UHGV virus genome: UHGV-1981267
Origin: a virus
Length of the DNA: 31,152 nt
Reading direction: 5' to 3' (one strand)
The position numbers and the translations under genes were made by a program. The notes under the pieces are model-generated. The model searched no databases. It was not told where the DNA came from and worked only from the letters and a program-made list of their open reading frames with translations. Within the stretch, counting starts at the first letter, position 1. Each line of letters starts with the position of its first letter. Below are positions 10,393-30,924 of the stretch, in pieces.

Positions 10393-10434
10393 ACATAATT
10401 GCCCATTATACGCGCGTATAATGGGGAATTATGT
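10393..10434. other. telRL: Telomere resolution site (telRL-like palindrome with telO core)
   Basis: 42-bp palindrome ACATAATTGCCCATTATACGC|GCGTATAATGGGGAATTATGT with one mismatch. The central 22 bp CCATTATACGCGCGTATAATGG matches my recollection of N15 telO. Immediately upstream of telN. Confidence 0.8.
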
Positions 10435-14937: not shown

Positions 14938-14939
14938 TT

Positions 14940-15462: not shown

Positions 15463-18400
15463 AGAAAGCGCCCTGCTCTTCGTAGCTGCATGGGCTATTC
15501 CCGGTAATGTATTCACGTAACCGCCGCAGTTCATTGCTGGATAAGTGATCCATGAACTCTGTGAGGTACAGAGATGCAAACGTCATAGCTATGCTGGCTG
15601 ATGACCATGATGACATAGTGGCCAGCTCCTCACCGGAAAGCGCACTCATCGCCCAGGACTCAGGTACAACCACTGGCAACACAGCCAAAGCCTCAGAAAT
15701 TACTGAATGAGGGGCGTTTTGAACCTGCTCGTTTGTGGATCGCGTTTTATCATCCATATATATATTGAGATCCAAATCGCGATCCATTTCGATGGCGGTC
15801 TTCTCGGCTTTACGCGTTTTCAGGGTTAGGCCATCTTTCTGACGCTGAGCAAGAATATCCAGCATAAATGCCGCTGATTCAGGCTCAACAAAACGCAAGG
15901 TTGGACGCTTATCGCCGTCTCTGCCGCGACGTTTACCTGTTTTAAGGCCAAGAGAGTCGCAAATGTTTTTAAACAACGCTTCCGGCACTTTAGGCTTCCC
16001 TTTTGGCGTCATAAAACCACCAATGTGCAGAACGTTATTCAACAGGTCACGGCGTTCGGCTGTCATGAGGTTATCTCGAGCGAATTTGAGACGCTCCTGA
16101 GTCGCCTCGCCGGTCATAGTCTCAGGGTTGATACCGCAGTCGATAAAGTACTGCCGGAGAGTTGCTGATTTAAGCGCATAGAAACCGCGCGCCCCGACTT
16201 CAACAGTAGGAGTAGCTTTTACCTTGTAGTCGATTATTCCAAGGAATTTAGTTTTAAAGACATCATCAGCCTGCTCGCGAGTCATCGCGGTCACTACAAA
16301 ATATTGCCACTGTCCCGCCTGACGGTATGCGTAGGTAAAATTGATGGCTGCTTCTTCCCGGTCGTAACGACGAGCTGTTACCTCATCTAAAAGCATTGTT
16401 TCATAGCGGCGAATTTTGTCTCGAGCACCATCGAAATAGAATTTCAGCGTGCCTTCTTCAACCGGTAGTTTCAGTTCGTTCTCAATATCCCAGCGGACAA
16501 GTTTTGCTTGTTCTTCAAGCGTCAGCGCGCGTTTTTTTAGCAGTTCTTCACGCTCTGATTCTTGTGGAGTTTCTGTATTGAGATGCAGATCCAGTGTCTG
16601 TTCCCACACAATATCCCGCGCTTCTTTACGCAGATCTTTACCGATATCATTCGCAGCATAATCGGTGGCCAGCGGCGATACCTTATAACCGTCGCTGTGC
16701 ATGATGCAGATCATGTTGCTGGCGTAGTCGTTACGCGCAGACGCTTCAATTGCGGCTGCTTTAATTTTCATCCTGGTAAAGTCGGTATTGGCCACCCCCA
16801 TTGATATACGGTCGCCATCGAAAACGACATCCGTCAGTTCACCGTTCATGCCTGCGGTAGCAAGCAATGCCTGGGCGAATGCTCGTTCTATTTTTTGCGG
16901 GTCAGTTTCACGTTTTGCGCGAGCTTTATCAAAGCCGATAATAAATTCTTTTGCTGTACGGTCGCGGCGTAGCATTTGCACTGCGTCGCTGGGTACAACT
17001 TCACCACAGAACATGCCGAAATGACGGTCAAAATGTTTTTGCTCAATTGACACACCGGATGAAATAGACGGGCTATAAATCAGGCCGTCGTATTTTTTGA
17101 CCATCTTTTTCGGTTGATTGGTAAATGCTTCAACTTCTGGCTCTGGTTTGTTTTTCTGGTTTACACACAGAAATTTCTTACCAGGAAAATGCATTCTCAG
17201 GGTGGCGGTCACATCTTCTGCAAAGGTGGAGCTGTCGGTGGCCAACATGATTTTTTCGCCATTCGATACAGCTTTCACCACCTCGGTCATAATGCGATCT
17301 TTTTCTGTATAAAAAACCCGGATTGGCTCACCTGTTTCGCGGTTGCGAAGATCAACAGGTAATTCAATTACGTGGATCTGCAGCCATGCCGGTAAACCTA
17401 GTTCTTCACGGCGTTTCATAGCCAGTTCAGCTAGGTCAACCAGCAGATCGTTCGCATCAGCATCCACCATTATTGGGTGTTGTTCCGTTCTGGCCAGCGC
17501 GTCAATTAACGTATTGAATACAGCCACCGGGTTTTCCATAGCCCGACCGGAAAGAACGGCACGTAGCCCTTGCGTGGCCTCGTCAAAGCCAAAATAGTCG
17601 TGCTGGCGCATCAATGGTTGCCAGCAGTTTTTAACAATCGAGTTTATGCAGATGGTCAGTTTACTGGCGTATGGAGCCATTTCCTGATAGCCAGGGTCCT
17701 GATAGTGCAGGATATCGGCTTTTACACCTTTTCCTTCTGTCATCATTTCCCACAGGCCACCAATAAGGGAAACACGGTGAGCAACAGAGATACCACGTTC
17801 TGAGCTATGCATTAAAGGTCGTAACAATCCAGTAGATTTGCCGGAACCCATACCAGCACGAACGATGACTATCCCCTGTAGTGATTGCACATACTTCAGG
17901 ACGTCATCGGTCATTACCGAAGTTTCAAAACGCTTATAGGTGATATGTTGAGGACGTTTATTGGGATCAGTTATTCGTTCGCTGAATGAGCGCGGAGCCT
18001 GGGCAATACGGCACTTTTTATTCAGGCGACGGGCAATGTGGTCTTTTACCGTAGCGCGATAGATATTTTCCAGCCCAATTTCACGCAGGACGATGCAGAA
18101 CATGTTAAATAAGTCTGACGGACTGTTAGGAACCGGACAGGTTAGCATGCCAATATCCACTGCTCTCAGCAGCTCTTTGGCAAAAGTACGACGGTTATCC
18201 CGCTTAATTGTCTTCAGGCGGTTGAGCGTCAGAGATAGCAAATCAGTGCCAGTTTTCAGGCGGTTTGCAGTTGCAAACAGTTGACGTGCTGTTTCACGAA
18301 GTCCACGTAGTTTGTGCAGGTCGTTGAAGTCACTGCACTCCATTTGCGGATCGTCTTCAAAAGTTGGATAGACGCAGCGGACATCGTTGAATTTCGATAA

Positions 18401-19450
18401 GATTTCATAGCCAGTCCGCAGGCCGGTATTCCCTTTTCCTTCTGTAGCTGATTTCCGGTCATTATCCAGTGCGCAGGTGATTTTTGCCGCCGGGTACATG
18501 TTTACCAGTTGTTCCACAACATGAACCATGTTGTTAGCGGATACAGCGACAACCACAGCGTCAAAGCGTTTATCTTTTTTCGTGGCAAGCCAGATGGATG
18601 CACCAGTAGCAAAACCTTCTGTAACAGCGATGTTTTGCGCCCCTTTCAGCTCACCGATAACAAAGCAGGCACCGACGAAATCGCCGCTGGTTACGGCGCT
18701 GGTCTGGTATTTTCCACCTTGTTTGTCGATTCGCTGCCAACCAACAATACGACCATCGTAACGACCGTCCAGGTGAGCCAGAGGGATAGACATATACGTG
18801 GTTGGCCCCCTGCTCCATTTTGCGCTGTCGTGACTGGTCACGCGACGCACATCACACGAATTAAAAACGTCACGAATACCTTTTTTAATCGCATATGGCC
18901 ATGAGCCGTCTTCTGCAGGAGCATGTTCCCAAGCACTGTGGAATGCCAGCCATCCCAGCAAACGTTCATGGTCCATTTGGTTGTTTTTCAGGTCATTAAT
19001 TCGTTTTTGTTCTTCACGGCGACGACGTGCTTCGGCCTGACGTTCTATTCTTGCCCGTTCTTCTTCCGGTTGTGCGACCACGGTCGCATTATTCCGTTGT
19101 TGCTCACGGCGATATTCAGAAAACAGGAAGGAGAAACCGCTCCATGAGCCAGCATCGCTGCCTTTATGGACGAAGTTAATGAACGGGTAATCAATCCCTT
19201 TGCTGTGTTCCAGCCGGGAGTAAATTTCTACGCGTCCTTTGAGGCTCTTCTCGAGAGCTTCTGGAGATGTTTTATTGTATGAAGAGTAACGCTCAACACC
19301 CCCGCGAGGGTTGAGTTGGATGTTGTCGGAACAGGCAGACCAGTTGATACCAGCCATCTGTGCCAGCTCGGTTAGTTCATCCCGTGCTGCTTCAATTAGC
19401 GAGAACGGATCGCTGCCAAAGCGATCCGCATAGAAATCGTTTAATGTCAT
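15455..19450 (-). CDS. repA: Replication protein RepA (primase plus helicase, N15 RepA-like)
   Basis: 1331-aa ORF. Walker A GMGSGKS in the central helicase region. Size and position next to cB as in N15. Confidence 0.9.
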   Translation of the reverse strand: MTLNDFYADRFGSDPFSLIEAARDELTELAQMAGINWSACSDNIQLNPRGGVERYSSYNKTSPEALEKSLKGRVEIYSRLEHSKGIDYPFINFVHKGSDAGSWSGFSFLFSEYRREQQRNNATVVAQPEEERARIERQAEARRRREEQKRINDLKNNQMDHERLLGWLAFHSAWEHAPAEDGSWPYAIKKGIRDVFNSCDVRRVTSHDSAKWSRGPTTYMSIPLAHLDGRYDGRIVGWQRIDKQGGKYQTSAVTSGDFVGACFVIGELKGAQNIAVTEGFATGASIWLATKKDKRFDAVVVAVSANNMVHVVEQLVNMYPAAKITCALDNDRKSATEGKGNTGLRTGYEILSKFNDVRCVYPTFEDDPQMECSDFNDLHKLRGLRETARQLFATANRLKTGTDLLSLTLNRLKTIKRDNRRTFAKELLRAVDIGMLTCPVPNSPSDLFNMFCIVLREIGLENIYRATVKDHIARRLNKKCRIAQAPRSFSERITDPNKRPQHITYKRFETSVMTDDVLKYVQSLQGIVIVRAGMGSGKSTGLLRPLMHSSERGISVAHRVSLIGGLWEMMTEGKGVKADILHYQDPGYQEMAPYASKLTICINSIVKNCWQPLMRQHDYFGFDEATQGLRAVLSGRAMENPVAVFNTLIDALARTEQHPIMVDADANDLLVDLAELAMKRREELGLPAWLQIHVIELPVDLRNRETGEPIRVFYTEKDRIMTEVVKAVSNGEKIMLATDSSTFAEDVTATLRMHFPGKKFLCVNQKNKPEPEVEAFTNQPKKMVKKYDGLIYSPSISSGVSIEQKHFDRHFGMFCGEVVPSDAVQMLRRDRTAKEFIIGFDKARAKRETDPQKIERAFAQALLATAGMNGELTDVVFDGDRISMGVANTDFTRMKIKAAAIEASARNDYASNMICIMHSDGYKVSPLATDYAANDIGKDLRKEARDIVWEQTLDLHLNTETPQESEREELLKKRALTLEEQAKLVRWDIENELKLPVEEGTLKFYFDGARDKIRRYETMLLDEVTARRYDREEAAINFTYAYRQAGQWQYFVVTAMTREQADDVFKTKFLGIIDYKVKATPTVEVGARGFYALKSATLRQYFIDCGINPETMTGEATQERLKFARDNLMTAERRDLLNNVLHIGGFMTPKGKPKVPEALFKNICDSLGLKTGKRRGRDGDKRPTLRFVEPESAAFMLDILAQRQKDGLTLKTRKAEKTAIEMDRDLDLNIYMDDKTRSTNEQVQNAPHSVISEALAVLPVVVPESWAMSALSGEELATMSSWSSASIAMTFASLYLTEFMDHLSSNELRRLREYITGNSPCSYEEQGAFYG
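15736..15786. other. Candidate replication origin element inside the repA 3' region
   Basis: Inverted repeat TGGATCGCG ... CGCGATCCA flanking the AT tract CATATATATATT. Three GATC sites within about 50 bp. Confidence 0.35.
19073..19088. other. sopC-like centromere palindrome (inside repA coding sequence)
   Basis: TGCGACCACGGTCGCA: 7-bp inverted arms with 2-bp spacer. One base per arm different from the F sopC core TGGGACC-AC-GGTCCCA as recalled. Confidence 0.7.
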
Positions 19451-19504
19451 TTTTTAGCCATTCCATGCGAATTATGTTTTTTCGGGTTGAAAAAATCCGC
19501 AGGA

Positions 19505-19601
19505 GCAGCCACAATAAACGCATCTTGAATTGACGGAATCCGTCGCGTTGTTGTGGCTGCTTCCTGAAAAGGACCCGAGTTTGCCGACTCGGGTTTTTTT
19601 T
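19505..19601 (+). other. Stem-loop plus strong plus-strand intrinsic terminator in the cB-repA intergenic region
   Basis: 10-bp inverted arms GCAGCCACAA / TTGTGGCTGC (19505..19514, 19551..19560) enclosing the palindrome GACGGAATCCGTC. Then stem CCCGAGT / ACTCGGG with an 8-T run (19574..19601). Confidence 0.45.
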
Positions 19602-19695
19602 CGTCTTTTTTCTGCTGCTGTAACCTGAGTCAACCCACAGAACATATGCCCTGCATTAAACCAGATTTACAGTAAACAATAAACCCCATATTAAG

Positions 19696-20292
19696 TCATC
19701 TACCCTCAACCATGAATGATTTGATCGTTCCGACTATTTGGTGAACAAATTCAAGATCGCTTTTCCTGAAGATGGCGCGTTGTGAGTTTGTTCCATCCAG
19801 ATAGTAATTTTCATCATCAAAACGGGCCAGGCGCTGGATAGTGATATTTCCTGCAGTATCACGAACCAGAACATCCTCGCCGGGGACCAGTTCCAGCGCA
19901 GAATCGACCAGGAGAAAATCGCCTGGCTGATAGTTTCCCTGCGTAAGATTGCTGATAGTTAACGCATACACAGTATTGCGCTGGCTGATGAATGGCAGGA
20001 ATCGCTCAGTATTTGGAACCTGTCCCGGCTTCCACTCTTCATCCGGCCCACTTTCAGTTGTGCCAATAACAGGAATGCGATCAGGGTCATATTCTGTCCC
20101 ATATAGCACCCAATGCACTGGCTTGCGTAAGCACTTAGCCAGGGCAATACCTATCTCCAGTGACGGCATTACGTCGCCACGTTCTAAGTTTTGGACGCCT
20201 GCTATAGAGATATCGACAGCCTCAGCAACTTCTCGCAACGTCAGCTTCATCTCTAAACGGCGTGCTTTCAGTCGTTCGCCTCGTGTTTTCAT
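19696..20292 (-). CDS. cB: Prophage repressor CB (HTH plus LexA/S24-like C-terminal domain)
   Basis: 198 aa. N-terminal HTH (LTLREVAEAVDISIAGVQNLERG). C-terminal domain typical of CI/LexA-type repressors. Divergent from cro. Confidence 0.88.
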   Translation of the reverse strand: MKTRGERLKARRLEMKLTLREVAEAVDISIAGVQNLERGDVMPSLEIGIALAKCLRKPVHWVLYGTEYDPDRIPVIGTTESGPDEEWKPGQVPNTERFLPFISQRNTVYALTISNLTQGNYQPGDFLLVDSALELVPGEDVLVRDTAGNITIQRLARFDDENYYLDGTNSQRAIFRKSDLEFVHQIVGTIKSFMVEGR

Positions 20293-20314
20293 AGCTTAAT
20301 CATAAATGATCTTC

Positions 20315-20356
20315 TTATAGCTGGCTATAAAATTTATTTATTATAGCTGGCTTTAA
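20315..20356. promoter_or_regulatory. immB operator repeats between cB and cro
   Basis: TTATAGCTGGCTATAA (20315..20330, inverted arms TTATAGC / GCTATAA) and a second copy TTATAGCTGGCTTTAA (20341..20356). TATAAT at 20372..20377 precedes the cro ATG. Confidence 0.5.
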
Positions 20357-20383
20357 TTGTTGTTTATTGTTTATAATAACAAC

Positions 20384-20605
20384 ATGAAACCAGAAGAACT
20401 TATTCGCCATTTTGGCAGTGTAGAAAAAGCAGCGGCAGGGGTAGGTGTAACACCCGGAGCTGTTTACCAATGGTTAACCGCTGGAGAGATTCCTTCATTG
20501 CGGCAAAGCGATATTGAAGTTCGTACTGCTTATAAGCTGAAGAGTGACTTTACAACTCGGCGGGTAAAGCAGTCGATTAAGGAGAGTCGTAAGCGTGGAG
20601 CTTGA
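20384..20605 (+). CDS. cro: Cro-like HTH regulator
   Basis: ATG at 20384 gives MKPEELIRHFGSVEKAAAGVGVTPGAVYQWL... (HTH). No SD and a -10 hexamer just upstream suggest a leaderless mRNA. Track ORF begins at TTG 20357. Confidence 0.7.
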   Translation: MKPEELIRHFGSVEKAAAGVGVTPGAVYQWLTAGEIPSLRQSDIEVRTAYKLKSDFTTRRVKQSIKESRKRGA

Positions 20606-21305
20606 GTATATACGCAGCTGCGTCTCTACGGCATTGGCTGATGTTCATTATCGCCAGCGTGGCATTCTGGAGGTCCAGCTTGAGCAGATGCGTCTCGGTA
20701 GGTCAGGACGGTTTAACAATAAACCAGTCTGGTCAATCAGTGTGGGGGATGATAACTCATACGAAGTGTCCGTTCCTGCTGAGCCGGTTAGATTCCACCA
20801 GGGGAAAACATTTAAACAATCATCAATGTTGCTCACTGATATTGATTTTCAGAGCGCCAGCTGGCGCAGGGCTATTGGTCAGTTGAATAACGAGGAATCA
20901 GCCTGGCTTTATTATTGCTACGGATGCAAGCCTGATTACAACAATGATGTGATTGTTTGTCAGTGGTTATGGCTTGATTTTCTGGTTGCTCATTCGGGGG
21001 GCGGCTTTAAAAAAATGAAGGCCTCCACGAAAAAAGCCATGCGGAAATTGATTTATTACGCGGCACAGCAGGTTAAATCAGAACTTACGTGTGCTGAAGC
21101 AGTTGATGAGAGAGAACAGGACAGGCATCTGAGTTTTCTACTGAATATATCTATTGATAGCTGGAGACAAGATTATAAAGAGCGCTGGCTTTTAATTAAG
21201 TCGCGATGTCTGAGCTTAAATCGAACTGCATTATTAAATGCGGCGGAGAAGCGCAGTGAAATCATCAAACGCCATCGGGCAGGAAGTGCCATTCTGCCTT
21301 TGTAA
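20595..21305 (+). CDS. Possible late-gene antiterminator (Q-like), otherwise hypothetical
   Basis: 236-aa ORF with GTG start overlapping the cro stop. Cys cluster YYCYGC...C. Position after cro as recalled for N15 Q. No sequence match could be verified. Confidence 0.4.
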   Translation: MELEYIRSCVSTALADVHYRQRGILEVQLEQMRLGRSGRFNNKPVWSISVGDDNSYEVSVPAEPVRFHQGKTFKQSSMLLTDIDFQSASWRRAIGQLNNEESAWLYYCYGCKPDYNNDVIVCQWLWLDFLVAHSGGGFKKMKASTKKAMRKLIYYAAQQVKSELTCAEAVDEREQDRHLSFLLNISIDSWRQDYKERWLLIKSRCLSLNRTALLNAAEKRSEIIKRHRAGSAILPL

Positions 21306-21312
21306 ACAAGTT

Positions 21313-21558
21313 ATGTTCAGGAAACCGTCGAAGCCAGAATTAAGGTATTCGGGGGTAAGAAATGAATATGTTATCTGGTGTCCAACTTGTGGTTACAGGA
21401 CACGACCAGATAGTAATAAGCAGTCTGTAATTGCCGATTGGTATTTATCAAATCAGCCAGGTAATAAGCATATAGAAAATCTTTGGATTAAGCGTTACTT
21501 GGAAATCAGAGAGGGTGCGACCGTGGTCGCACAAGAAAATGAAAATAACGCCATTTAA
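21313..21558 (+). CDS. Small zinc-ribbon protein
   Basis: Internal ATG of track ORF 21238..21558. CPTCGY motif. Contains a sopC-like site at its 3' end. Confidence 0.4.
   Translation: MFRKPSKPELRYSGVRNEYVIWCPTCGYRTRPDSNKQSVIADWYLSNQPGNKHIENLWIKRYLEIREGATVVAQENENNAI
21516..21531. other. sopC-like centromere palindrome
   Basis: TGCGACCGTGGTCGCA. Confidence 0.7.
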
Positions 21559-21742
21559 GCAGGGGCCGATGACGCATGATGAAGCAGAGCGTCTTTCAGA
21601 TACTTATCGGCGGCGTGGTAAGAAAGTTCTGGTTGTTCGTTCTGATTTTTTAGGTGATGGATATTGCGTTTATGTTCATTTACCTGAATCAGAAAGAACG
21701 CCAAAACCATCCAGAACATATCAACAGAAAATTTGGGTATAG
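21539..21742 (+). CDS. Hypothetical small protein (start uncertain; alternative ATG 21569)
   Basis: Track ORF 21515..21742. No motif recognised. Confidence 0.3.
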   Translation: MKITPFKQGPMTHDEAERLSDTYRRRGKKVLVVRSDFLGDGYCVYVHLPESERTPKPSRTYQQKIWV

Positions 21743-21765
21743 ATAAACGTTGAGGAGAATTATTC

Positions 21766-22365
21766 GTGACTAATCAGATTATTTACGACAGGAAACGGTC
21801 TGATGTAATGATTGACCTTGAAACAATGGGTACTAACACATGTGCTCCAATTGTTTCTATCGGGGCAGTGTTTTTTTCTCCAGAAAGTGAGGAATTAGGT
21901 CCTACTTTTTATGTGCCAGTGAATCTCAGAAGCTCGATGTTGAATGGTGGTATCGCCGATGGTGATACCATTTTATGGTGGTTGAAACAGAGCAAGGAAG
22001 CCAGAGCCGCTATTTGTACTAATGATGCCCTTGATATTAAGGATGCACTTTTTGAATTATCACACTTTATTACTTGCCATGCATGTAATTTAAAAAAGTT
22101 GAAAGTATGGGGAAATGGAGCAACGTTCGATAATGTAATTTTACGCGGTGCTTATGAGCGCGTTGGCTTAGCCTGTCCGTGGGAATATTTTAATGATCAG
22201 GATGTTCGAACAATCGTTAATCTTGGTCAGTTTATTGGTTTTAATCCTAAAAAAGATATGCCATTTGATGGCGAACGACACAATGCCCTGGCTGATGCTA
22301 TTCATCAGGCTAAATATGTATCCGCAATTTTCTCCCGTCTTGTAAAAGGGCAAGGAGAATCGTAA
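21766..22365 (+). CDS. 3'-5' exonuclease, DnaQ-like DEDDh family
   Basis: GTG start with SD GAGGAG 8 nt upstream. Motifs IDLETMG (Exo I), GNGATFDNVIL (Exo II), ERHNALADA (Exo III). Confidence 0.75.
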   Translation: MTNQIIYDRKRSDVMIDLETMGTNTCAPIVSIGAVFFSPESEELGPTFYVPVNLRSSMLNGGIADGDTILWWLKQSKEARAAICTNDALDIKDALFELSHFITCHACNLKKLKVWGNGATFDNVILRGAYERVGLACPWEYFNDQDVRTIVNLGQFIGFNPKKDMPFDGERHNALADAIHQAKYVSAIFSRLVKGQGES

Positions 22366-22784
22366 TGGCAAAGGCTTTTACACCAGAACAGAGGGAAGAA
22401 CTGAATAAACAAATTGTGGAACTCGTGCGCCTGAATGGACGAGGAACGGTTAGGCAACTTGCGGATGAAACTGGTATTAGCCGGTGTGCTGTTAGTCGTT
22501 TATCAAGAGAGCTTGCTGCCAGTGGTGATTTGTATATCTCTGGCTCCGGGATATTTCTGTCTGCACAAGCACGCAAGGACTGGCAAAACGCCCGTAAAAA
22601 ACTATCAAGAGTAAAGCCGAAGAAATCGGTAGTGGTTGATCCAGACCTTATCTGGTCATTACCTGACGGAGAAATACGTCGTTACGACAGGCGCTTGAAC
22701 ATGATTTGTCACGATTGCCGGAAAAGTGAAGTTATGCAGCGTGTGCTGGCTTTTTATCAGGGAAATTTACAGGAGGTGGCGTAG
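22365..22784 (+). CDS. Putative DNA-binding protein (HTH-like)
   Basis: 139-aa ORF. Segment TVRQLADETGISRCAVSRLSREL resembles an HTH. Start overlaps upstream stop. Confidence 0.45.
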   Translation: MAKAFTPEQREELNKQIVELVRLNGRGTVRQLADETGISRCAVSRLSRELAASGDLYISGSGIFLSAQARKDWQNARKKLSRVKPKKSVVVDPDLIWSLPDGEIRRYDRRLNMICHDCRKSEVMQRVLAFYQGNLQEVA

Positions 22785-23074
22785 TGAATATCGACACCAC
22801 GATAACGATCGATACGGCCCTAAATATCGGTCTGGCACTTCTCGGTTGGTTTTACATCATGTTCAGTGCGGGGAAGTGGGCGGCCTCTGTTTTTCTAAAG
22901 CAGTGGGGAAAGCACCGCAAACAGGAAAGACGCCAGAAAGTGTTAGAGGCGTTCTATGACGCATTTGAACTTAGCCGCATTGAGCCAGGCACAACAGCCA
23001 AGATAGCGAAAAAAGGCGACCTGATGATAGTGATGTTCCGACAGGAGAGAGCAGAGAAAGGGGAATCAGCATGA
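22784..23074 (+). CDS. Small membrane protein
   Basis: 96-aa ORF with one hydrophobic segment (LNIGLALLGWFYIMF). Confidence 0.4.
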   Translation: MNIDTTITIDTALNIGLALLGWFYIMFSAGKWAASVFLKQWGKHRKQERRQKVLEAFYDAFELSRIEPGTTAKIAKKGDLMIVMFRQERAEKGESA

Positions 23075-23730
23075 AATTTTCCAAATTTTCTGAGTTGGTG
23101 AATCGTATTTTGTCCAACAACCACAGCCATCGTCGCGATATGGATGTAACAATCGTTATTCATTCGCCTGGCAGCATTGGTTCAACACCCTCAGTTGAGG
23201 TTCAGTCAATTCACGCTGGTTTTGATTGGGATTCCGGGAAAGTGCTGATTTTCCCAGCACAGCCACTGACTACGCTAACACCAGAACAGATTACTGATAT
23301 TACTGATAGTGTGCGCAAAGGTCAGTCCTGGCACGCATATCAGGAATACAAGAAGCATAAAGAGCAGTTGGAAAAATTGTCGATTGAACTGGATGCTGCA
23401 AAACAGCGCGTAGCAGAACTGGAAGCCAAACCTGTAAGCCAAACTTACAAGTTAACTTTTGAGCAATGGCTGGAACAGCAGCATGACAAAATTGATGTTG
23501 ATTGTGGATGCGTAAGTACTGAAATGTTTATGCACTGGATAAGGGTCGCGTATGAGGCTGGCAACTCTCCGGTAACTCCGGATGGTCATGTTCAGTTTTC
23601 TGTTTCACTTCCTGCAGCGTTTGGTGGAGATAAATATTTTATTGATGGTGTATTTCAACCTTTGAGATATGAGCGTGACTGTGAAAGGGCGGTTGTGGCC
23701 GCTGGCGGTGTAGTTAATTGGGTTAAGTAA
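23071..23730 (+). CDS. Hypothetical protein with central coiled coil
   Basis: 219-aa ORF. Heptad-like segment KEQLEKLSIELDAAKQRVAELEAK. No catalytic motif recognised. Confidence 0.5.
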   Translation: MKFSKFSELVNRILSNNHSHRRDMDVTIVIHSPGSIGSTPSVEVQSIHAGFDWDSGKVLIFPAQPLTTLTPEQITDITDSVRKGQSWHAYQEYKKHKEQLEKLSIELDAAKQRVAELEAKPVSQTYKLTFEQWLEQQHDKIDVDCGCVSTEMFMHWIRVAYEAGNSPVTPDGHVQFSVSLPAAFGGDKYFIDGVFQPLRYERDCERAVVAAGGVVNWVK

Positions 23731-23745
23731 TTTTCAGGAGGATTT

Positions 23746-24072
23746 ATGGCGCTGACACCGGCAGAACGGCAAAGGAGACGCAGGGAACGGTTGAAGAAGG
23801 AAGGCACATCAAGACGGGACTGGATTCTAGAACCTGACGAGTTACGTATGTTGGGGGAAATTTGTGTATTGCGTAGACCAGGGCGAGTTCCATATTCGGA
23901 GAACGAAGTCATTGGTTTGCTGATCAGGAAAAACTATAAGGAGCTGCAGAAGCAGCTATCTACTACTTGCCCGCGATGTGGTCAAAAAATGCCTGTTTCA
24001 GAATGCATTTTTGATGGCGAAGGGTCATGCCACCTTACAACCACGAGGCTGAAACTTGCGCTCAAAGCGTGA
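23746..24072 (+). CDS. Hypothetical basic protein with zinc-ribbon-like CPRCG...C...C
   Basis: 108-aa ORF. SD AGGAGG upstream. Arg-rich N-terminus. Confidence 0.5.
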   Translation: MALTPAERQRRRRERLKKEGTSRRDWILEPDELRMLGEICVLRRPGRVPYSENEVIGLLIRKNYKELQKQLSTTCPRCGQKMPVSECIFDGEGSCHLTTTRLKLALKA

Positions 24073-24090
24073 CTGGTCACGGAGGGATAA

Positions 24091-24333
24091 ATGGATAAAA
24101 AGGCATTGCTTTTTGAAATGATACGAAAACGGAGCGAAAAGAGCTTTTCTGATGGTGGTGATGGGTTTGTTTTCGCTTCGATGCTTGCTTTTGATGTTGG
24201 GTTAAATAGCAGAATTGTTAAAAGGATGCTTGATTCTGCTGTCCGTACTGGACTTCTTGAGAAAGTTGATCGTGGCATAGGGAGAGAGCATAAGTATCGG
24301 GCCACACAGCAGTTTACGCAGTTAATTCATTGA
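24091..24333 (+). CDS. Hypothetical protein
   Basis: 80-aa ORF with SD GGAGGG upstream. Confidence 0.45.
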   Translation: MDKKALLFEMIRKRSEKSFSDGGDGFVFASMLAFDVGLNSRIVKRMLDSAVRTGLLEKVDRGIGREHKYRATQQFTQLIH

Positions 24334-24415
24334 AAATTGACCGTAAAGTTTGAGTTTTACCCTGTAATTTTATACAGTACAAACAACCTTTTTTAGTTAA
24401 ATGGTATGAGATTTA

Positions 24416-24619
24416 ATGTCTGAAGCAGCCGTATCAACTCTTGAACAACTCGATTCAAATTTAAGAGATATTGACGCCATTCTGGATCTGGTTAGCGTCA
24501 CCCTGGCTTCTCCAGAAGCCAGCCTACATATTGGTGAGGTTTCACGACTCATCAACATGTCGCGAGAGATTGCCCAGCATTGTCAGAAAACTATCGCTGT
24601 TGAGCGTTCACATCATTGA
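24416..24619 (+). CDS. Hypothetical protein
   Basis: 67-aa ORF. Convergent with the toxin-antitoxin pair. Confidence 0.4.
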   Translation: MSEAAVSTLEQLDSNLRDIDAILDLVSVTLASPEASLHIGEVSRLINMSREIAQHCQKTIAVERSHH

Positions 24620-24661
24620 TGCACACCCCGCCCTTCTGGACGGGGTAGTAAAAGAGTCTAA

Positions 24662-24949
24662 TTAATAAACAGCGCGAATATCGATGGCTGCGCCGCAGGC
24701 ATGAGCATATTTAGCCAAAGTTTTCATACTTGCCCCTAAAGGATTGCTTTCCAGGCGGCTGATGGCTGACGGTCGTAACCCCATTCGTTCAGCCAGAGCT
24801 GATTTCGTTAAACCTGCTCTTTCCCTCATTTCGTATAACATTTCGACCATCTCCAGCTCTTTGTCGGCCTCTTCATATCCTTTGACGGCTTCTGGAGTGT
24901 TGAGGAGTTTTTCTTTTACTTCGTTAAACGGGATGCCTTTCGCTTTCAT
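24662..24949 (-). CDS. HTH antitoxin (HigA / Xre-like)
   Basis: 95 aa. HTH LTKSALAERMGLRPSAISRLES. Immediately downstream of, and overlapping, the toxin gene. Confidence 0.8.
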   Translation of the reverse strand: MKAKGIPFNEVKEKLLNTPEAVKGYEEADKELEMVEMLYEMRERAGLTKSALAERMGLRPSAISRLESNPLGASMKTLAKYAHACGAAIDIRAVY

Positions 24950-25260
24950 CAGTTCATCTCCTTCAGGCGAGTTCTGGCGATTTCGATAGCCTTCACCGGT
25001 GTTTTCTGTGTCTTTTTTACAAATGCATGCAATAGATAAATTTCGTTACCAGTCGCGTAGACGTACAGCGTTCTTGCGATGTTTTTATCCCCTACTCGTA
25101 GTTCAAAAAGCCCTCCACCTATTACACGGCTATGGGGCATCTTCAGTTTGTTGCCTTCTTTCTCCAGTCGCTCAATTAATCTGGCCATGCGACCTCGCAA
25201 ATCATCTGGTAGTTCAAGCAGTTCATCCAGTGCTGCAGGGTGGGTTATCACGTTAAACAT
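24949..25260 (-). CDS. RelE/ParE-superfamily toxin (HigB / Gp49-like)
   Basis: ATG at 25260 with SD GGAGG. Motifs GGGLFELRVGDK..IARTLYVYATGNEIYLLHAFVKKTQKTP typical of this toxin family. Track ORF extends to 25305. Confidence 0.8.
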   Translation of the reverse strand: MFNVITHPAALDELLELPDDLRGRMARLIERLEKEGNKLKMPHSRVIGGGLFELRVGDKNIARTLYVYATGNEIYLLHAFVKKTQKTPVKAIEIARTRLKEMN

Positions 25261-25425
25261 ATTATAGCCTCCACATCCATAAAATACACCAAAACAAGAA
25301 AACAATGTAAATTAAAAATTTCACTAAAAAGCGAAAAATAACACTGGATGTGTTCGTTTGGCAGAGTTACAGTTCGTGTCATTGAGGGGCAATAACCCAC
25401 TAACTATATGAATTTGGAGGATATT

Positions 25426-25647
25426 ATGAATTATCAAGGTAACGAAAAAATGCGCGACGACGTTGCGGAGATAGCTAACGAACTGTATGAGTTGTGGCAG
25501 AAGGTTGAACGTTTCGAAAAGGAATATGGTTTCAACAGTACCAACCTGGCAGACCGACTGGCTGGTCGCTTAGTTGGGACTATGGGGCCAAAACTGGCTG
25601 AGTTGAACCGCTTTATGGCTGATGTTGATTTCCAGTTTCAAGATTGA
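25426..25647 (+). CDS. Hypothetical protein
   Basis: ATG at 25426 with SD GGAGG (25416..25420). Track ORF begins at 25408. Confidence 0.5.
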   Translation: MNYQGNEKMRDDVAEIANELYELWQKVERFEKEYGFNSTNLADRLAGRLVGTMGPKLAELNRFMADVDFQFQD

Positions 25648-25660
25648 TTAGAGAGGCGTT

Positions 25661-25888
25661 ATGAATATTAATGAAATTCGTGGAAATATGACTGAAGCGG
25701 CCCTGAGTGTGGAATGTGTTATGCGTGGATACCCACGCATTTCCCTGAAAGAGTTAAGCGAAGCCTGTTTTTTGAGTCAAGCTGCCGTTGAATTTATCAT
25801 CGAACAGATGATCTGTTTTGGGGTTGCAAAGCGTAGCGGGTCTGGTCGATATTCTTTGACCGATGAATATAAGCAGGCAACTTTCTAA
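25661..25888 (+). CDS. Hypothetical protein
   Basis: 75-aa ORF closely following the previous gene. Confidence 0.45.
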   Translation: MNINEIRGNMTEAALSVECVMRGYPRISLKELSEACFLSQAAVEFIIEQMICFGVAKRSGSGRYSLTDEYKQATF

Positions 25889-25894
25889 AAACTG

Positions 25895-25910
25895 TGCGAC
25901 CACGGTCGCA
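25895..25910. other. sopC-like centromere palindrome
   Basis: TGCGACCACGGTCGCA, within the longer palindrome CTGTGCGACCACGGTCGCACAG. Confidence 0.7.
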
Positions 25911-25930
25911 CAGCACAAAAACGAAAAAGC

Positions 25931-25960
25931 TTGGCAAAATTACGGTTTTTAGTTATTGTT
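25931..25960 (+). promoter_or_regulatory. Candidate sigma70 promoter (possible late promoter)
   Basis: TTGGCA (25931..25936), 18-bp spacer, TATTGT (25955..25960). Followed closely by hairpins and a terminator. Confidence 0.35.
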
Positions 25961-25997
25961 TTGTTAAGTTGGGTTTTTTGTACCCAACAGCCAACAA

Positions 25998-26022
25998 GCC
26001 GCCTTTATGGCGGTTTTTTTGT
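25998..26022 (+). terminator. Intrinsic terminator downstream of the candidate promoter (tR'-like)
   Basis: Stem GCCGCC / GGCGGT, loop TTTAT, then a 7-T run. A second hairpin GTTGGG...CCCAAC lies at 25968..25988. Confidence 0.6.
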
Positions 26023-26110
26023 GCCTGAAAAGTGGGCGCAGGACAAGTTGCAGCTTGTCCTGCGGTCAACCCATGCCAGAGCTATAGGCTGAACCTAAAG
26101 CCCACCCGCG

Positions 26111-27232
26111 ATGCGCATCGCCGGGTTAGCTTACCCAGGCAAAAAAATAATAGCTATGTTCAAAACCACTAATATTCATGGCGCGCAACTCGTTTGCGCA
26201 GATTCTCTGCAATTTATCAAAACCATCCCTGATAACTCGGTCAATTTGATTGCAACAGACCCACCATACTTCGGCGTAAAGGCTAACGCATGGGATAACC
26301 AGTGGGATAGCGATGCTGACTTTTTGGGGTGGATTGATGAATTTTTGGCAGAATTTTGGCGGATATTGGCCCCTAATGGCAGCCTGTATATGTTTACCGG
26401 CTCTCGCCTTGCGTCAAAAATTGAATTATTAACTCGCGACCGTTTCAATGTTCTGAACCATATCATTTGGGCTAAACCCAGTGGTATGTGGCGCGGTTGT
26501 CATAAAGAAAGTTTAAGGGCTTATTTTCCTGCCACTGAAAGAATATTATTTGCAGAGCATTACGGCGCGTCAGGTTATGCTAAAGGTCAGTCAGGTTATG
26601 CTTCAAAATGTGCAGATTTAAGAAAAAATATTTTTTCTCCACTAATTGATGCTTTTTCGCTGGCTCGCCGTCAGTTAGATATATCAGCCGCAGACATTAA
26701 TTCAGCAACAGGAAAGCAGATGTGTTCGCACTGGTTTTCTTATTCGCAGTGGCGGCTTCCATCATTAAGTGATTTTAATAAACTATGCGAATTATTTCGC
26801 AGGAAGGCAGATTCACTCGGTGTCCCGTGTCCATATCCTTTTAATGTTGATTATTCAGAACATGAAAAGCGTTATAGCGATCTGAAATTGCGTTATGAGG
26901 AAGTAAAGAAGCAGTATGATGATTTGAAGGCTCAGTATGAAAATTTGCGCCGCCCATTTCATGTTACTGCTGATGTACCTTATACCGATGTATGGGAGTT
27001 TCCTCCTGTGCAATATTATCCTGGCAAGCACCCATGTGAAAAACCTGCAGCGATGATGGAACATATTATAAAAAGTAGTTCCCGCCCCGGAGATATCGTT
27101 GCCGATTTCTTTATGGGATCAGGCTCTACTATTAAAGCCGCGCTGAAGTTAGGTCGTCAGGCAATCGGTATTGAGATTGAGGGTGAACGTTATCTTCAGA
27201 CAGTTGATGAAGTGAAAAAGTTATTTGAGTAA
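26111..27232 (+). CDS. DNA methyltransferase, likely N6-adenine (beta-class amino-MTase)
   Basis: DPPY motif near the N-terminus (LIATDPPYFG). FxGxG-type AdoMet motif near the C-terminus (DFFMGSGST). Alternative start ATG 26156. Confidence 0.8.
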   Translation: MRIAGLAYPGKKIIAMFKTTNIHGAQLVCADSLQFIKTIPDNSVNLIATDPPYFGVKANAWDNQWDSDADFLGWIDEFLAEFWRILAPNGSLYMFTGSRLASKIELLTRDRFNVLNHIIWAKPSGMWRGCHKESLRAYFPATERILFAEHYGASGYAKGQSGYASKCADLRKNIFSPLIDAFSLARRQLDISAADINSATGKQMCSHWFSYSQWRLPSLSDFNKLCELFRRKADSLGVPCPYPFNVDYSEHEKRYSDLKLRYEEVKKQYDDLKAQYENLRRPFHVTADVPYTDVWEFPPVQYYPGKHPCEKPAAMMEHIIKSSSRPGDIVADFFMGSGSTIKAALKLGRQAIGIEIEGERYLQTVDEVKKLFE

Positions 27233-27327
27233 CTGAAGAATATATTCCCCTGCCGTTTTTGATGGGGTTATTTCTCGCCGTATAGTTTCCAAGCCGAAAC
27301 CTCAGCAACTATTGCGAGGTAAGAGAT

Positions 27328-27600
27328 ATGAAGATGGATGAACGATACAGCAGCGCATCTTATGGTAGTGCTGGTCTTACTGCGTTCTTTGCCAGCCTGT
27401 CATTGCAGGATTGGGGCTTCATTATCGGTGTCGCGTTCAGCATTATCCTCGGTGTACTTACATACCGGCTCAATAAACGCGAGCAGATGAAGCGCACGAA
27501 GATATTGCAGGACATATTGGATAAAACTGATGCCAATAATATTTCCGCCACGGCGATGGTTATTGGTGAATTGGGAAAGAGAGCACCGAAGGAAATATGA
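27328..27600 (+). CDS. Pinholin (phage 21 S21-like class II holin) with dual-start motif
   Basis: MKM dual start. Pattern [35 protein letters not shown] parallels recalled S21. Directly precedes a SAR endolysin. Confidence 0.75.
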
Positions 27601-28097
27601 TGCAGTCATCATTACGCAAAGCTGTCGCAACAGCTATTGGTGGCGGGGCTATTGCCATAGCATCTGTGCTCATCTCTGGTCCGAGCGGCAACGATGGTCT
27701 GGAAGGTGTGAGACATAACCCCTACAAAGACATCGTTGGTGTATGGACTGTATGTTACGGGCATACAGGAAAAGACATTATGCTCGGTAAAACGTATACC
27801 GAAGCAGAATGCAAAGCTCTCCTGAATAAAGACCTTGCTACTGTCGCCAGACAAATTAACCCGTACATCAAAGTCGATATACCGGAAACAACGCGTGGTG
27901 CTCTTTACTCGTTCGTTTACAACGTGGGTGCAGGCAATTTCAGAACATCGACACTTCTTCGCAAAATCAACCAGGGCGATATCAAAGGTGCATGTGATCA
28001 ACTACGTCGCTGGACATATGCTGGCGGTAAGCAATGGAAAGGGCTGATGACTCGCCGTGAGATTGAGCGTGAAGTCTGTTTGTGGGGGCAGCAATGA
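27597..28097 (+). CDS. SAR endolysin (lysozyme, phage 21 R-like)
   Basis: N-terminal signal-anchor-release segment [33 protein letters not shown] and lysozyme core. ATG overlaps the holin stop. Confidence 0.9.
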
Positions 28098-28561
28098 GCA
28101 GAGTAACCGCAATTATCTCCGCACTGGTTATCTGCATCATCGTCTGCCTGTCGTGGGCTGTTAATCATTACCGTGATAACGCCATCGCCTACAAAGAACA
28201 GCGTGATAAAAAAGTCAGTGAGCTGAAGCAGGCGACCGCCACCATCGCTGACATGCAGCAGCGTCAGCGTGATGTTGCTGCGCTCGATGCAAAATACACG
28301 AAGGAGTTGGCTGATGCGAAAGCTGAAAATGATGCTCTTCGGCGCAAGCTTGATAATGGTGGTCGGGTGCTCGTCAAAGGAAAATGCTCTGTGCCATCCT
28401 CAGCCGAAACCTCCAGCGCCTCCGGCATGGGCAATGATGCCACCGTCGAACTCTCTCCAGTTGCTGGACGAAACGTTCTCGGTATCCGGGACGGAATCAT
28501 CAGAGACCAGACAGCACTGAGAACGCTTCAGGAATACATCAAGACGCAATGCCCGAATTAA
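28094..28561 (+). CDS. Rz: Spanin inner-membrane subunit Rz
   Basis: [30 protein letters not shown]... closely matches recalled lambda Rz. ATG overlaps the endolysin stop. Confidence 0.88.
28314..28520 (+). CDS. Rz1: Spanin outer-membrane lipoprotein subunit Rz1, embedded in the +1 frame of Rz
   Basis: SD AAGGAG 7 nt upstream of ATG 28314. Lipobox VVGC. Proline-rich mature part [11 protein letters not shown]. Confidence 0.8.
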
Positions 28562-28602
28562 TCCCTCTGTATCAAAAACGAACTCAATTTGTTGGATAGT
28601 GA

Positions 28603-28914
28603 ATGAAAATTTATATTGCCGGGCCAATGACTGGATATGAGAACTTTAATCGTGACGCCTTTAATAAAGAGGCAGATCGTTTGTCACGACATGGTCACTC
28701 TGTCTTGAATCCAGCCACTTTGCCTAATGGTCTGACACAACGTGAATACATGGATATTTGCTTTGCAATGCTTCGTTGTGCTGATGCTATTTTGATGCTT
28801 CCTGGCTGGAAAGCGTCTGCTGGAGCAACTGCTGAGTATCATTACGCATACAAGATGGAGATGCCGGTATTCACTACGCTGAATTACCCGCCAGCTTGTT
28901 CCTCTGTAGCATAA
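28603..28914 (+). CDS. DUF4406-like small protein (nucleoside 2-deoxyribosyltransferase-like fold family)
   Basis: N-terminal MKIYIAGPMTG motif, which I recall as typical of this prophage protein family. Confidence 0.5.
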   Translation: MKIYIAGPMTGYENFNRDAFNKEADRLSRHGHSVLNPATLPNGLTQREYMDICFAMLRCADAILMLPGWKASAGATAEYHYAYKMEMPVFTTLNYPPACSSVA

Positions 28915-28934
28915 AAATCTCTTTGTTTCTCGTG

Positions 28935-28950
28935 TGCGACCGTGGTCGCA
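28935..28950. other. sopC-like centromere palindrome
   Basis: TGCGACCGTGGTCGCA. Confidence 0.7.
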
Positions 28951-28961
28951 CATTAAATACC

Positions 28962-29138
28962 GCGCTGCATCGTCGCCGTATTTCCGCATTAACCATGACC
29001 GTAGCCCGACGGGGAACTCCTCTGCGCGAGTGTGCGGAAATAATCAAAAACGATGCACACCGGGTTTTTACCGCGCTAATGATTCGCGGGTTTGTCCCTC
29101 ATGCTCGCCAGTCCTGTGCGAGGGTGGAAGAAACAGGG
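28962..29138 (+). repeat. Direct repeat copy 1 (duplicate of the cos-proximal sequence at 30744..30921)
   Basis: About 178 bp, roughly 85-90% identical by eye to copy 2, with one 1-bp indel. Flanked on both sides by sopC-like palindromes. Confidence 0.8.
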
Positions 29139-29154
29139 CATGTATTCAGGAGCG

Positions 29155-29170
29155 TGCGACCGTGGTCGCA
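29155..29170. other. sopC-like centromere palindrome
   Basis: TGCGACCGTGGTCGCA. Confidence 0.7.
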
Positions 29171-29194
29171 CGGTATCTTTGTCAGGAGGTTTTG

Positions 29195-30743: not shown

Positions 30744-30921
30744 TGCGCTGCATCGTCGCCGTATTTCCGCATTAACCATGACCGTAGCCCGACGGGGAAT
30801 TCCTTCTGCGCGAGTGTGCGTAAATAATCAAAAACGATGCACACCGGGTTTTTACCGCGTTTATGGTGCGCGGTTTTGTCCCTCATAGTCGCCCGTCCGG
30901 TGCGATGGTGGAAGAAGCTGG
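30744..30921 (+). repeat. Direct repeat copy 2, contiguous with cos
   Basis: Matches copy 1 at 28962..29138 and runs into the lambda-like cosQ/cosN region. Confidence 0.8.
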
Positions 30922-30924
30922 ATA

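What the first reader, a model, noticed from the sequence alone, without database searches (positions are those of the whole stretch)
19073..29170. Five dispersed sopC-like centromere sites, two inside coding sequences
Copies of TGCGACC-(AC or GT)-GGTCGCA are at 19073, 21516, 25895, 28935 and 29155. The 7-bp arms differ by one base from the F sopC core as I recall it. Dispersed centromeres are a known N15 trait (four sites reported, as I recall). Here there are five in this window. The copies at 19073 (in repA) and 21516 (in a small ORF) both encode the peptide ATVVAQ, so the sites are embedded in reading frames.
Basis: partly seen in the sequence, partly recalled or inferred. Interest (0 to 1): 0.55.

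Follow-up and report, generated by a model that had tools for sequence, protein, structure and literature searches.

The report
Dispersed SopB centromeres in N15-like prophage
The five palindromes are real and are almost certainly the scattered docking sites that the partition protein SopB uses to segregate this linear plasmid-prophage, a known arrangement of phage N15 and its relatives, so the finding is correct but largely ordinary.

Summary
All five exact copies of TGCGACC-NN-GGTCGCA are at the stated coordinates. About 7e-5 are expected by chance, and none appeared in 100 shuffles. The window is an N15-like linear plasmid-prophage with sopAB, a telRL palindrome, protelomerase and repA. Its arms are identical to the published N15 centromere sites IR1-IR4, and they differ from F sopC by one base per arm, as the literature states. 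The window's SopB has the N15-type recognition helix (D-R-N). PY54 and F have S-R-K and use TGGGACC. Sites 1-4 sit at the four syntenic N15/phiKO2 positions: in repA, at the 3' end of a conserved but often unannotated Lar-like gene after Q, 20 bp upstream of the late promoter, and after the DUF4406 gene. In the two coding sites, synonymous variation is suppressed inside the 16-mer. The fifth site (29155) lies in lambdoid cos-proximal DNA. Exact or decayed copies of it occur at the same position in integrated lambdoid prophages. Site number varies among relatives: 4 in N15 and phiKO2, 7 in 48ST307, 8-11 in PY54. Verdict: a new member of a known kind. The only mildly novel part is the lambdoid origin of the fifth site.

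The parts
19073..19088 (.). Site 1 (IR1 orthologue), TGCGACCACGGTCGCA, inside repA codons ~121-126
   Evidence: same position as N15 IR1 and the site annotated in phiKO2. 1 of 14 specified bases varies, against 27 of 30 flanking third-codon positions.
21516..21531 (.). Site 2 (IR2 orthologue), TGCGACCGTGGTCGCA, in the last codons of the Lar-like gene, 211 bp after the Q stop
   Evidence: 0 of 14 specified bases vary in 9 distinct homologues, while the centre NN does vary.
25895..25910 (.). Site 3 (IR3 orthologue), 20 bp upstream of the -35 element of the presumptive late promoter
   Evidence: layout conserved with the annotated late promoters of N15 and phiKO2.
28935..28950 (.). Site 4 (IR4 orthologue by synteny), 20 bp after the stop of the DUF4406 gene
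   Evidence: relatives place a site directly after this gene (phiKO2 gp58, L013, L028).
29155..29170 (.). Site 5 (extra site), at the end of a lambdoid cos-proximal fragment, 24 bp before the orf29195 start codon; hairpin with a U-rich tail
7825..8790 (-). sopB, centromere-binding protein with an N15-type recognition helix (ENIDRNIITRCIN)
   Evidence: Pfam SoPB_HTH.
8790..9956 (-). sopA, ParA-type partition ATPase
   Evidence: (93% identical to N15 SopA).
10393..10434 (.). telRL palindrome (telomere resolution site), centre at 10413/10414
   Evidence: PhiR46_1 telL maps here.
10605..12512 (+). Protelomerase telN
   Evidence: TelK domains.
15455..19450 (-). repA (replication protein), host gene of site 1
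20595..21305 (+). Q-like late antiterminator
21238..21558 (+). Lar-like zinc-ribbon gene ('orf QD1'), host gene of site 2
25931..25959 (+). Presumptive late promoter (TTGGCA-17-TATTGT), followed by the terminator at 25996-26016
28603..28914 (+). DUF4406 / nucleoside 2-deoxyribosyltransferase-like gene (homologue of N15 gene 57 and phiKO2 gp58)
28962..29148 (+). Lambdoid right-end fragment, copy 1 (between S4 and S5)
30745..30932 (+). Lambdoid right-end fragment, copy 2, lacking the palindrome and followed by cos

Best explanation
The five 16-bp palindromes are the dispersed centromere (SopB-binding) sites of an N15-like linear plasmid-prophage. Inferred mechanism, by homology with N15 and F: a SopB dimer recognises each palindrome through its helix-turn-helix plus a conserved arginine outside it. 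It nucleates a larger SopB-DNA partition complex, and the ParA-type ATPase SopA then positions plasmid copies on either side of the division plane. All sites lie 8.7-18.7 kb from the telL end, while sopBA lies at the opposite end next to telR. Sites 2 and 3 probably also serve the second role proposed for N15 IR2 and IR3, which is helping Q-dependent late transcription. Site 2 follows Q and site 3 sits 20 bp upstream of the late promoter. Sites 1-4 are orthologues of N15 IR1-IR4. Site 5 is an additional exact site that arrived with, or was retained in, a lambdoid cos-proximal DNA module. What is shown here: sequence identity, synteny, DNA-level constraint, and covariation with the SopB recognition helix. 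What is inferred: binding, partition activity and the late-expression role.
For: Exact, non-chance motif. Identity to N15 IR1-IR4 (PMC7205306). phiKO2's GenBank record annotates four 'putative plasmid partitioning sites' at the same four positions. The cognate sopA and sopB are present, and SopB carries the Pfam SoPB_HTH domain. The arginines equivalent to F SopB R190, R195 and R219 are conserved. The recognition helix covaries with site type in six systems: D-R-N with TGCGACC in the window, PhiR46_1, N15 and phiKO2, and S-R-K with TGGGACC in PY54 and F. Published domain swaps place specificity in this segment (PMC2910045). DNA-level constraint inside genes: in repA, 1 of 6 site third-codon positions varies against 27 of 30 in the flanks (Fisher p=8e-4), and the preceding codon changes amino acid (N/H/R/C/G) but always ends in T. 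In the Lar-like gene, 0 of 14 specified bases vary against 36 of 90 flank bases (p=0.002), while the unspecified centre NN varies. The spacing from site 3 to the late promoter is conserved in N15, phiKO2 and 48ST307. The element is found only on plasmids, in 18 of 5426 complete E. coli genomes. 86 of 120 viral loci with the motif are N15-like.
Against: There is no binding or stability data for this element. Everything functional is by homology to N15 and F. Site 5 lies in DNA shared with integrating lambdoid phages that have no Sop system, and it also looks like an intrinsic terminator. Its presence may therefore owe nothing to partition, even though SopB should bind it. The sequences in the constraint tests are related by descent, so the p-values overstate independence. 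The late-expression role rests on my recollection of Ravin et al. 2008 (only the title was seen).
Confidence: 0.9

Rival explanations
1. The palindromes are primarily RNA hairpins or intrinsic transcription terminators, and their resemblance to SopB sites is secondary.
For: All fold as 8-9 bp GC-rich hairpins. S5 is flagged as terminator-like with a U-rich tail. N15 IR4 is annotated as a putative rho-independent terminator. Some lambdoid variants at the S5 position keep pairing: the symmetric A/T change in 2B8 and the TGTGACT variant, which would pair through G-U.
Against: S1-S4 have no U-run. S1 and S2 lie inside genes that must be read through. Across N15-type genomes the sequence is invariant rather than the pairing, with no compensatory changes. 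The only arm change seen, C to G, tracks the SopB recognition helix.
Confidence: 0.05
2. Site 5 is a passive passenger. It is a relic carried in a lambdoid cos-proximal module that recombined into this lineage, contributing nothing essential to partition, so the functional centromere is the canonical four sites.
For: Window 28962-29172 is 94% identical to the right end of lambdoid phage 2B8. The same position in lambdoid contigs holds exact, decayed, truncated or deleted versions. An integrated, defective prophage in the E. coli M18 chromosome has the exact site. A same-lineage variant, L106, lacks S5 altogether, and another, L017, has one more.
Against: Every N15-like locus in which the site precedes orf29195 keeps it exact: four distinct flank sequences from eight loci, centre GT or AC. 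In lambdoid contexts where the position is recognisable, most copies are degenerate. This hints at selection in Sop-bearing hosts. An exact site would be bound by SopB regardless of its origin.
Confidence: 0.35
3. The palindromes are targets of a different element-encoded protein, such as the CB repressor, the protelomerase or a methylase/restriction function, rather than SopB.
For: The element encodes several DNA-binding proteins and a DNA methylase.
Against: The N15 CB operators are annotated at other positions, next to gene 38. The telRL palindrome has a different sequence. The site type covaries specifically with the SopB helix. N15 SopB forms foci on an array of these four sites (PMC7205306).
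Confidence: 0.03

Closest known systems
N15 centromere sites IR1-IR4 (SopB-binding inverted repeats of phage-plasmid N15)
   Same: Identical 7-bp arms with a free 2-bp centre. The same four syntenic positions: in repA, after Q, upstream of the late promoter, and at the right end. The same Sop proteins (SopA 93%, SopB 73% identical) with the same D-R-N recognition helix. Sites are far from sopAB.
   Different: There are five exact sites instead of four. N15 IR1 carries one mismatch in the deposited sequence. The right-end region is rebuilt with lambdoid lysis and cos-proximal DNA, and it carries two sites 220 bp apart.
phiKO2 'putative plasmid partitioning sites' and the 48ST307-type Klebsiella phage-plasmids
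   Same: The same 16-mer and the same four positions, annotated in GenBank for phiKO2. 48ST307 also has doubled sites at the IR4 position.
   Different: 48ST307 has 6 exact sites plus 1 near-exact one. These include a 47-bp tandem pair before the late promoter and a site after the major capsid gene. The DNA between paired right-end sites is not homologous to the window's.
F plasmid sopC
   Same: A 16-bp palindrome bound by a homologous SopB. The arms differ by one base (TGGGACC against TGCGACC). The arginine contacts are conserved.
   Different: F has about ten tandem 43-bp repeats next to sopB. Here the sites are dispersed over 10 kb, more than 9 kb from sopB, and there is no tandem array near sopB. 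F SopB does not function with N15 sites (PMC7205306).
PY54 (Yersinia linear plasmid-prophage) dispersed sites
   Same: Dispersed palindromes at homologous positions, including repA and the 3' end of the Lar-like gene, in the same reading frame.
   Different: The arms are F-type (TGGGACC) with an S-R-K SpyB helix. There are 8 exact and 3 near-exact sites, including some in the head genes and one in spyB itself.

Membership tests
N15-type dispersed Sop centromere (IR sites) | 16-bp palindrome TGCGACC-NN-GGTCGCA identical to N15 IR1-IR4 | tested here: met
   published IR oligonucleotides in PMC7205306
N15-type dispersed Sop centromere (IR sites) | Cognate sopA/sopB operon on the same replicon | tested here: met
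N15-type dispersed Sop centromere (IR sites) | SopB helix-turn-helix carries the N15-type specificity determinants (segment equivalent to N15 residues 179-200) | tested here: met
   Window GNVKALAEAENIDRNIITRCIN against N15 GNVKALAEAEGIDRNIVNRCMN. D-R-N is shared, whereas F and PY54 have S-R-K. Specificity was mapped to this segment in PMC2910045.
N15-type dispersed Sop centromere (IR sites) | Sites dispersed, remote from sopAB, at the syntenic IR1-IR4 positions | tested here: met
   the fifth site is extra
N15-type dispersed Sop centromere (IR sites) | Host replicon is a linear plasmid-prophage (protelomerase plus telRL; extrachromosomal) | tested here: met
   18 of 18 E. coli occurrences are on plasmids
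N15-type dispersed Sop centromere (IR sites) | SopB binds the sites, and the sites confer Sop-dependent stability | not testable with these tools
   Needs EMSA or ChIP and plasmid-loss assays
F-type sopC centromere | Arms are TGGGACC / GGTCCCA | tested here: not met
   All five have TGCGACC
F-type sopC centromere | Tandem array of 43-bp repeats adjacent to sopB | tested here: not met
   No array near sopB. Sites are 0.2-4.4 kb apart and more than 9 kb from sopB.
Intrinsic (rho-independent) terminator | GC-rich hairpin immediately followed by a U-run | tested here: inconclusive
   Only S5 passes the scan. S1-S4 lack the U-run.

The most novel reading that the evidence does not exclude
The fifth site belongs to a cos-proximal module shared with integrating lambdoid phages. 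Exact N15-type SopB sites therefore sit in chromosomal prophages that have no Sop system, for example in E. coli M18. If these chromosomal copies are bound by SopB from a co-resident N15-like plasmid, they could act as incompatibility or titration determinants. They could also couple the two phages' late regions. More generally, the conserved palindromes may serve as portable junctions for module exchange between phage-plasmids and lambdoid phages. S4 and S5 sit within 4-11 bp of mosaic boundaries, and site number changes between 4, 5 and 6 within one lineage.
Probability: 0.15. Interest if true: 0.55.

Novelty: new member of a known kind. Interest (0 to 1): 0.25.

Why it matters
It confirms that the dispersed-centromere design of N15 is conserved, at the level of individual positions, in a lineage of E. 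coli phage-plasmids found in about 0.3% of complete E. coli genomes. It also shows that the sites are held fixed at the DNA level even inside two protein-coding genes. It gives a clean natural covariation between the SopB recognition helix and the centromere base that distinguishes N15-type from F-type systems. The practical uses are annotation, since these sites and the Lar-like gene are missing from current records, and incompatibility prediction. The lambdoid connection of the fifth site is a small, testable lead on gene flow between phage-plasmids and integrating phages.

Tried and rejected
(1) A new SopB specificity was rejected. The arms equal N15's and the recognition helix is N15-type.
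(2) Treating the shared ATVVAQ peptide as meaningful was rejected. It is the same 16-mer read in the same one of three frames. The relevant signal is DNA-level constraint, not the peptide.
(3) The idea that the ORF at site 2 is spurious was rejected. It is a conserved Lar-like gene.
(4) A sopC-like tandem array near sopB was looked for and not found.
(5) The Rfam scan of the window gave nothing at the sites, only the C4/isrK immunity RNAs elsewhere.
(6) Homology between the inter-site DNA of paired right-end sites in different lineages was looked for and not found.
(7) The primary N15 papers (PMC94163, PMC2394991) could not be read because they are not held.
(8) The literature searches found no description of SopB-type sites in lambdoid phages.
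(9) The direction of transfer of the S5 palindrome, from lambdoid phages to N15-like elements or the reverse, could not be resolved from the variants seen.
Full report
OBSERVATION. A pattern search finds exactly five copies of TGCGACCNNGGTCGCA, at 19073, 21516, 25895, 28935 and 29155, with centres AC, GT, AC, GT, GT. None of 100 dinucleotide-preserving shuffles gave a match. Base composition predicts about 7e-5 copies per window. Allowing two mismatches adds nothing. Allowing three adds a single chance-level hit at 20076.

WHAT THE REPLICON IS. The window is 98.7% identical over its right two-thirds to Escherichia phage PhiR46_1, and it is related at 74-77% to N15, phiKO2 and Klebsiella N15-like phages. 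It encodes the following:
- SopA at 8790-9956 on the minus strand, 93% identical to N15 SopA.
- SopB at 7825-8790 on the minus strand, 73% identical to N15 SopB, with the Pfam SoPB_HTH domain.
- A 42-bp telRL palindrome centred at 10413/10414.
- A protelomerase at 10605-12512.
- RepA at 15455-19450 on the minus strand, then a cB/cro/Q region, and a lambdoid lysis cassette.
A 2.8-kb segment spanning sites 1 and 2 occurs in 18 of 5426 complete E. coli genomes, always on plasmids of 27-75 kb and never on a chromosome. The complete genome of PhiR46_1 has the same five sites and no others, so five is the whole-replicon count. In the linear prophage map the sites lie 8.7, 11.1, 15.5, 18.5 and 18.7 kb from telL. 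The sopBA operon sits at the other end, next to telR.

IDENTITY WITH KNOWN CENTROMERE SITES. N15 carries the same 16-mer at 35931, 41125 and 45562, plus a one-mismatch copy inside repA at 33480. These are IR2, IR3, IR4 and IR1, whose sequences are printed in the oligonucleotide table of PMC7205306. That paper also states three things. F SopB functions only with sopC. N15 SopB forms foci on an array of the four IRs. N15 SopB has relaxed specificity and can also use the F site. PMC2910045 states that the N15 and F centromeres differ in one nucleotide per half-site, and that residues 179-200 of N15 SopB hold the specificity determinants. The phiKO2 GenBank record annotates four 'putative plasmid partitioning sites': in repA, after Q, 20 bp upstream of the putative late promoter, and after gp58.

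SYNTENY OF SITES 1-4.
- Site 1 is at repA codons ~121-126, the same position as in N15, phiKO2, MStein and PY54.
- Site 2 is 211 bp after the Q stop, in the last codons of a 106-aa ORF (21238-21558). That ORF is conserved in N15 (35653-35973, unannotated in RefSeq), phiKO2, MStein and PY54 (ORF44, annotated as Lar-like). It matches PHROG 6795, a Lar-like restriction alleviation protein, at E=1.5e-45.
- Site 3 ends 20 bp before TTGGCA-17-TATTGT (25931-25959), which is followed by a strong terminator (25996-26016). This layout aligns with the annotated late promoters of N15 and phiKO2.
- Site 4 lies 20 bp after the stop of the DUF4406 gene (28603-28914). This gene is the homologue of N15 gene 57 and phiKO2 gp58, which are followed by a site in many relatives.

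EVIDENCE THAT THE DNA SEQUENCE ITSELF IS CONSTRAINED. I compared 11 distinct repA contexts of the N15 type. Only 1 of the 14 specified site bases varies, against 40 of 90 flanking bases. At third-codon positions the figures are 1 of 6 against 27 of 30 (Fisher p=8e-4). The codon just before the site encodes N, H, R, C or G but always ends in the T that starts the palindrome. Among 9 distinct Lar-gene contexts, 0 of 14 specified bases vary against 36 of 90 flanking bases (p=0.002). The two unspecified centre bases do vary, giving V, T, S, M or A. These sequences are related by descent, so the p-values are only indicative. The shared peptide ATVVAQ is a by-product. In PY54, which uses F-type sites, both genes read G-T-T-V-P at the same place.

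COVARIATION WITH SOPB. The recognition helix reads as follows:
- Window: ENIDRNIITRCIN.
- PhiR46_1: EGVDRNIISRCIN.
- N15: EGIDRNIVNRCMN.
- phiKO2: EGVDRNIITRCIS.
- PY54 SpyB: ENISRKIIMRCIK.
- F SopB: ENISRKIITRCIN.
The first four use TGCGACC. PY54 and F use TGGGACC. The arginines equivalent to F R190, R195 and R219, which contact the conserved guanines, are all present in the window's SopB. This is the strongest in-silico link between these palindromes and this SopB.

THE FIFTH SITE. The 204 bp between S4 and S5 are lambdoid. Interval positions 12-200 match 85-96% a region 110-300 bp from the cos end of 424 lambda-like phage records. Window 28962-29172, which includes S5, is 94% identical to phage 2B8. 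At the orthologous position, about 90 bp before cosN, 2B8 has TGCAACCGTGGTTGCA, a symmetric one-base-per-arm variant. I sampled 120 viral contigs that carry the fragment. In those where the position is recognisable, lambdoid contexts show:
- the exact site (7 loci in two flank types),
- TGTGACTGTGGTCGCA (7 loci),
- single-arm changes (3 loci),
- a truncated right arm (4 loci),
- a clean deletion (4 loci).
Every N15-like locus in which the site precedes orf29195 keeps it exact: four distinct flank sequences from eight loci. The fragment is present in 3798 of 5426 E. coli genomes, nearly always on the chromosome. A defective integrated prophage in E. coli M18, with int and xis beside mdtA, carries the exact 16-mer.

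In the window the fragment is duplicated. Copy 1 is at 28962-29148 and copy 2 at 30745-30932. The two copies bracket S5, orf29195 (PHROG 2571, function unknown) and orf30179 (PHROG 3054, function unknown). Copy 2 has lost the palindrome and runs into cos. Variants of the same lineage exist without the whole S5-orf29195-orf30179 segment (L106: S4, one fragment copy, then cos). Others keep a further site after copy 2 (L017).

So S4 is the IR4 orthologue by synteny. S5 is an extra site associated with lambdoid cos-proximal DNA. Site number is labile even within this lineage. I cannot tell whether the palindrome moved from N15-like elements into lambdoid phages and is decaying there. The alternative is that a lambdoid late-region terminator hairpin was the source. 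S5 and N15 IR4 both have a U-rich tail, and two lambdoid variants preserve pairing.

HOW COMMON AND HOW SPECIFIC. The site count per genome is 4 in N15, phiKO2 and MStein. It is 5 here and in PhiR46_1 and YDC107_1. 48ST307 has 6 exact sites plus 1 near-exact one, including a 47-bp tandem pair at IR3 and a site after the capsid gene. PY54 has 8 exact plus 3 near-exact F-type sites. Of the first 120 viral loci with the exact motif, 86 have N15-like flanks, 5 are partial, and 29 are unrelated single-site loci with arbitrary centres, which looks like chance background.

MECHANISM. Binding of SopB dimers to each palindrome is inferred from N15 and F. So are the growth of a partition complex and SopA-driven segregation. 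The proposed second role of sites 2 and 3 in Q-dependent late transcription rests on Ravin, Rech and Lane 2008. I saw only the title of that paper and recall its content from memory: IR2 and IR3 mutants delay lysis. The conserved geometry here is compatible with it. The significance of dispersion for linear plasmids was addressed by Dorokhov, Ravin and Lane 2010 (reference seen, paper not read).

VERDICT. This is a new member of a known kind: N15-type dispersed Sop centromeres. The added details are modest:
- a real Lar-like gene hosting site 2,
- DNA-level constraint inside two genes,
- natural covariation between the recognition helix and the centromere base,
- a fifth site embedded in lambdoid cos-proximal DNA, with exact or decayed copies of it in integrated prophages.

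Noticed in passing
window 13902-14102 (minus strand): Rfam hits above gathering score to C4 antisense RNA (82 bits), isrK (68 bits) and the c4 a1/b1 target (49 bits). This is a P1/P7-type antisense immunity module in the antirepressor region.
   Followed up: no
window 28962-29148 and 30745-30932: Direct repeats (86-98% identical) of a lambdoid cos-proximal fragment bracket S5, orf29195 and orf30179. A same-lineage contig (L106) lacks the bracketed segment, and another (L017) keeps a site after copy 2. This is consistent with insertion or deletion by recombination between the repeats.
   Followed up: partly
L238 (E. coli M18 chromosome NZ_CP010219.1) 6169-6184; L014, L057, L096, L218: An exact N15-type SopB site, TGCGACCGTGGTCGCA, sits about 90 bp from cos in integrated or defective lambdoid prophages that show no Sop genes nearby. 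Many other lambdoid contigs hold decayed or deleted versions at the same position.
   Followed up: partly
L239 (Klebsiella phage 48ST307) 15133-15195, 18427/18581, 27548: Two sites lie 47 bp apart with duplicated flanks just upstream of the late promoter. This spacing is close to the 43-bp repeat of F sopC and could be an incipient tandem array. There is also a pair at the IR4 position and a site just after the major capsid gene. That head-module site is very common in IMG/VR Klebsiella-type contigs.
   Followed up: partly
L125 (PY54) 508, 6566, 22251, 26513, 30984, 31240, 34394, 39870, 40976, 41121, 44409: PY54 carries 8 exact and 3 near-exact F-type palindromes (TGGGACC-NN-GGTCCCA) across the genome. 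These include sites in the head genes, two in repA and a hybrid half-site inside spyB itself.
   Followed up: partly
L002 (N15 NC_001901) 33480-33495: The deposited N15 sequence has AGCGACC...GGTCGCA at IR1, a one-base mismatch. The IR1 oligonucleotide published in PMC7205306 Table 4 has TGCGACC at that arm. This is either a deliberate idealisation or a sequence discrepancy.
   Followed up: no
window 21238-21558; L002 35653-35973: A conserved 106-aa Lar-like zinc-ribbon gene overlaps the 3' end of Q by 68 bp. It is not annotated in PhiR46_1 or the N15 RefSeq record. It is called 'orf QD1' in older or other records.
   Followed up: yes
window 25931-26092: The small CDS that PhiR46_1 annotates here (record 14790-14951) covers the conserved late promoter, leader and terminator, and has no family match. 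It is probably not a gene.
   Followed up: partly
window 7825-8790 versus L001 43667-44656: SopB is only 82-84% identical to that of PhiR46_1, although the right arm is 98.7% identical. The partition and tail side of the window therefore has a different history from the replication and lysis side.
   Followed up: no
L123 (CP025712.1, YDC107_1): The record contains an inverted duplication of the telN-repA arm and lacks sopAB. It looks like a mis-assembly read through the hairpin telomere, which inflates its apparent site count.
   Followed up: no
window 10240-10375: Short tandem repeats (13-bp unit x5.7 copies, 18-bp unit x2.1 copies) lie just left of the telRL palindrome, between sopA and telN. 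They may be protein-binding repeats of the telomere or sop-promoter region.
   Followed up: no
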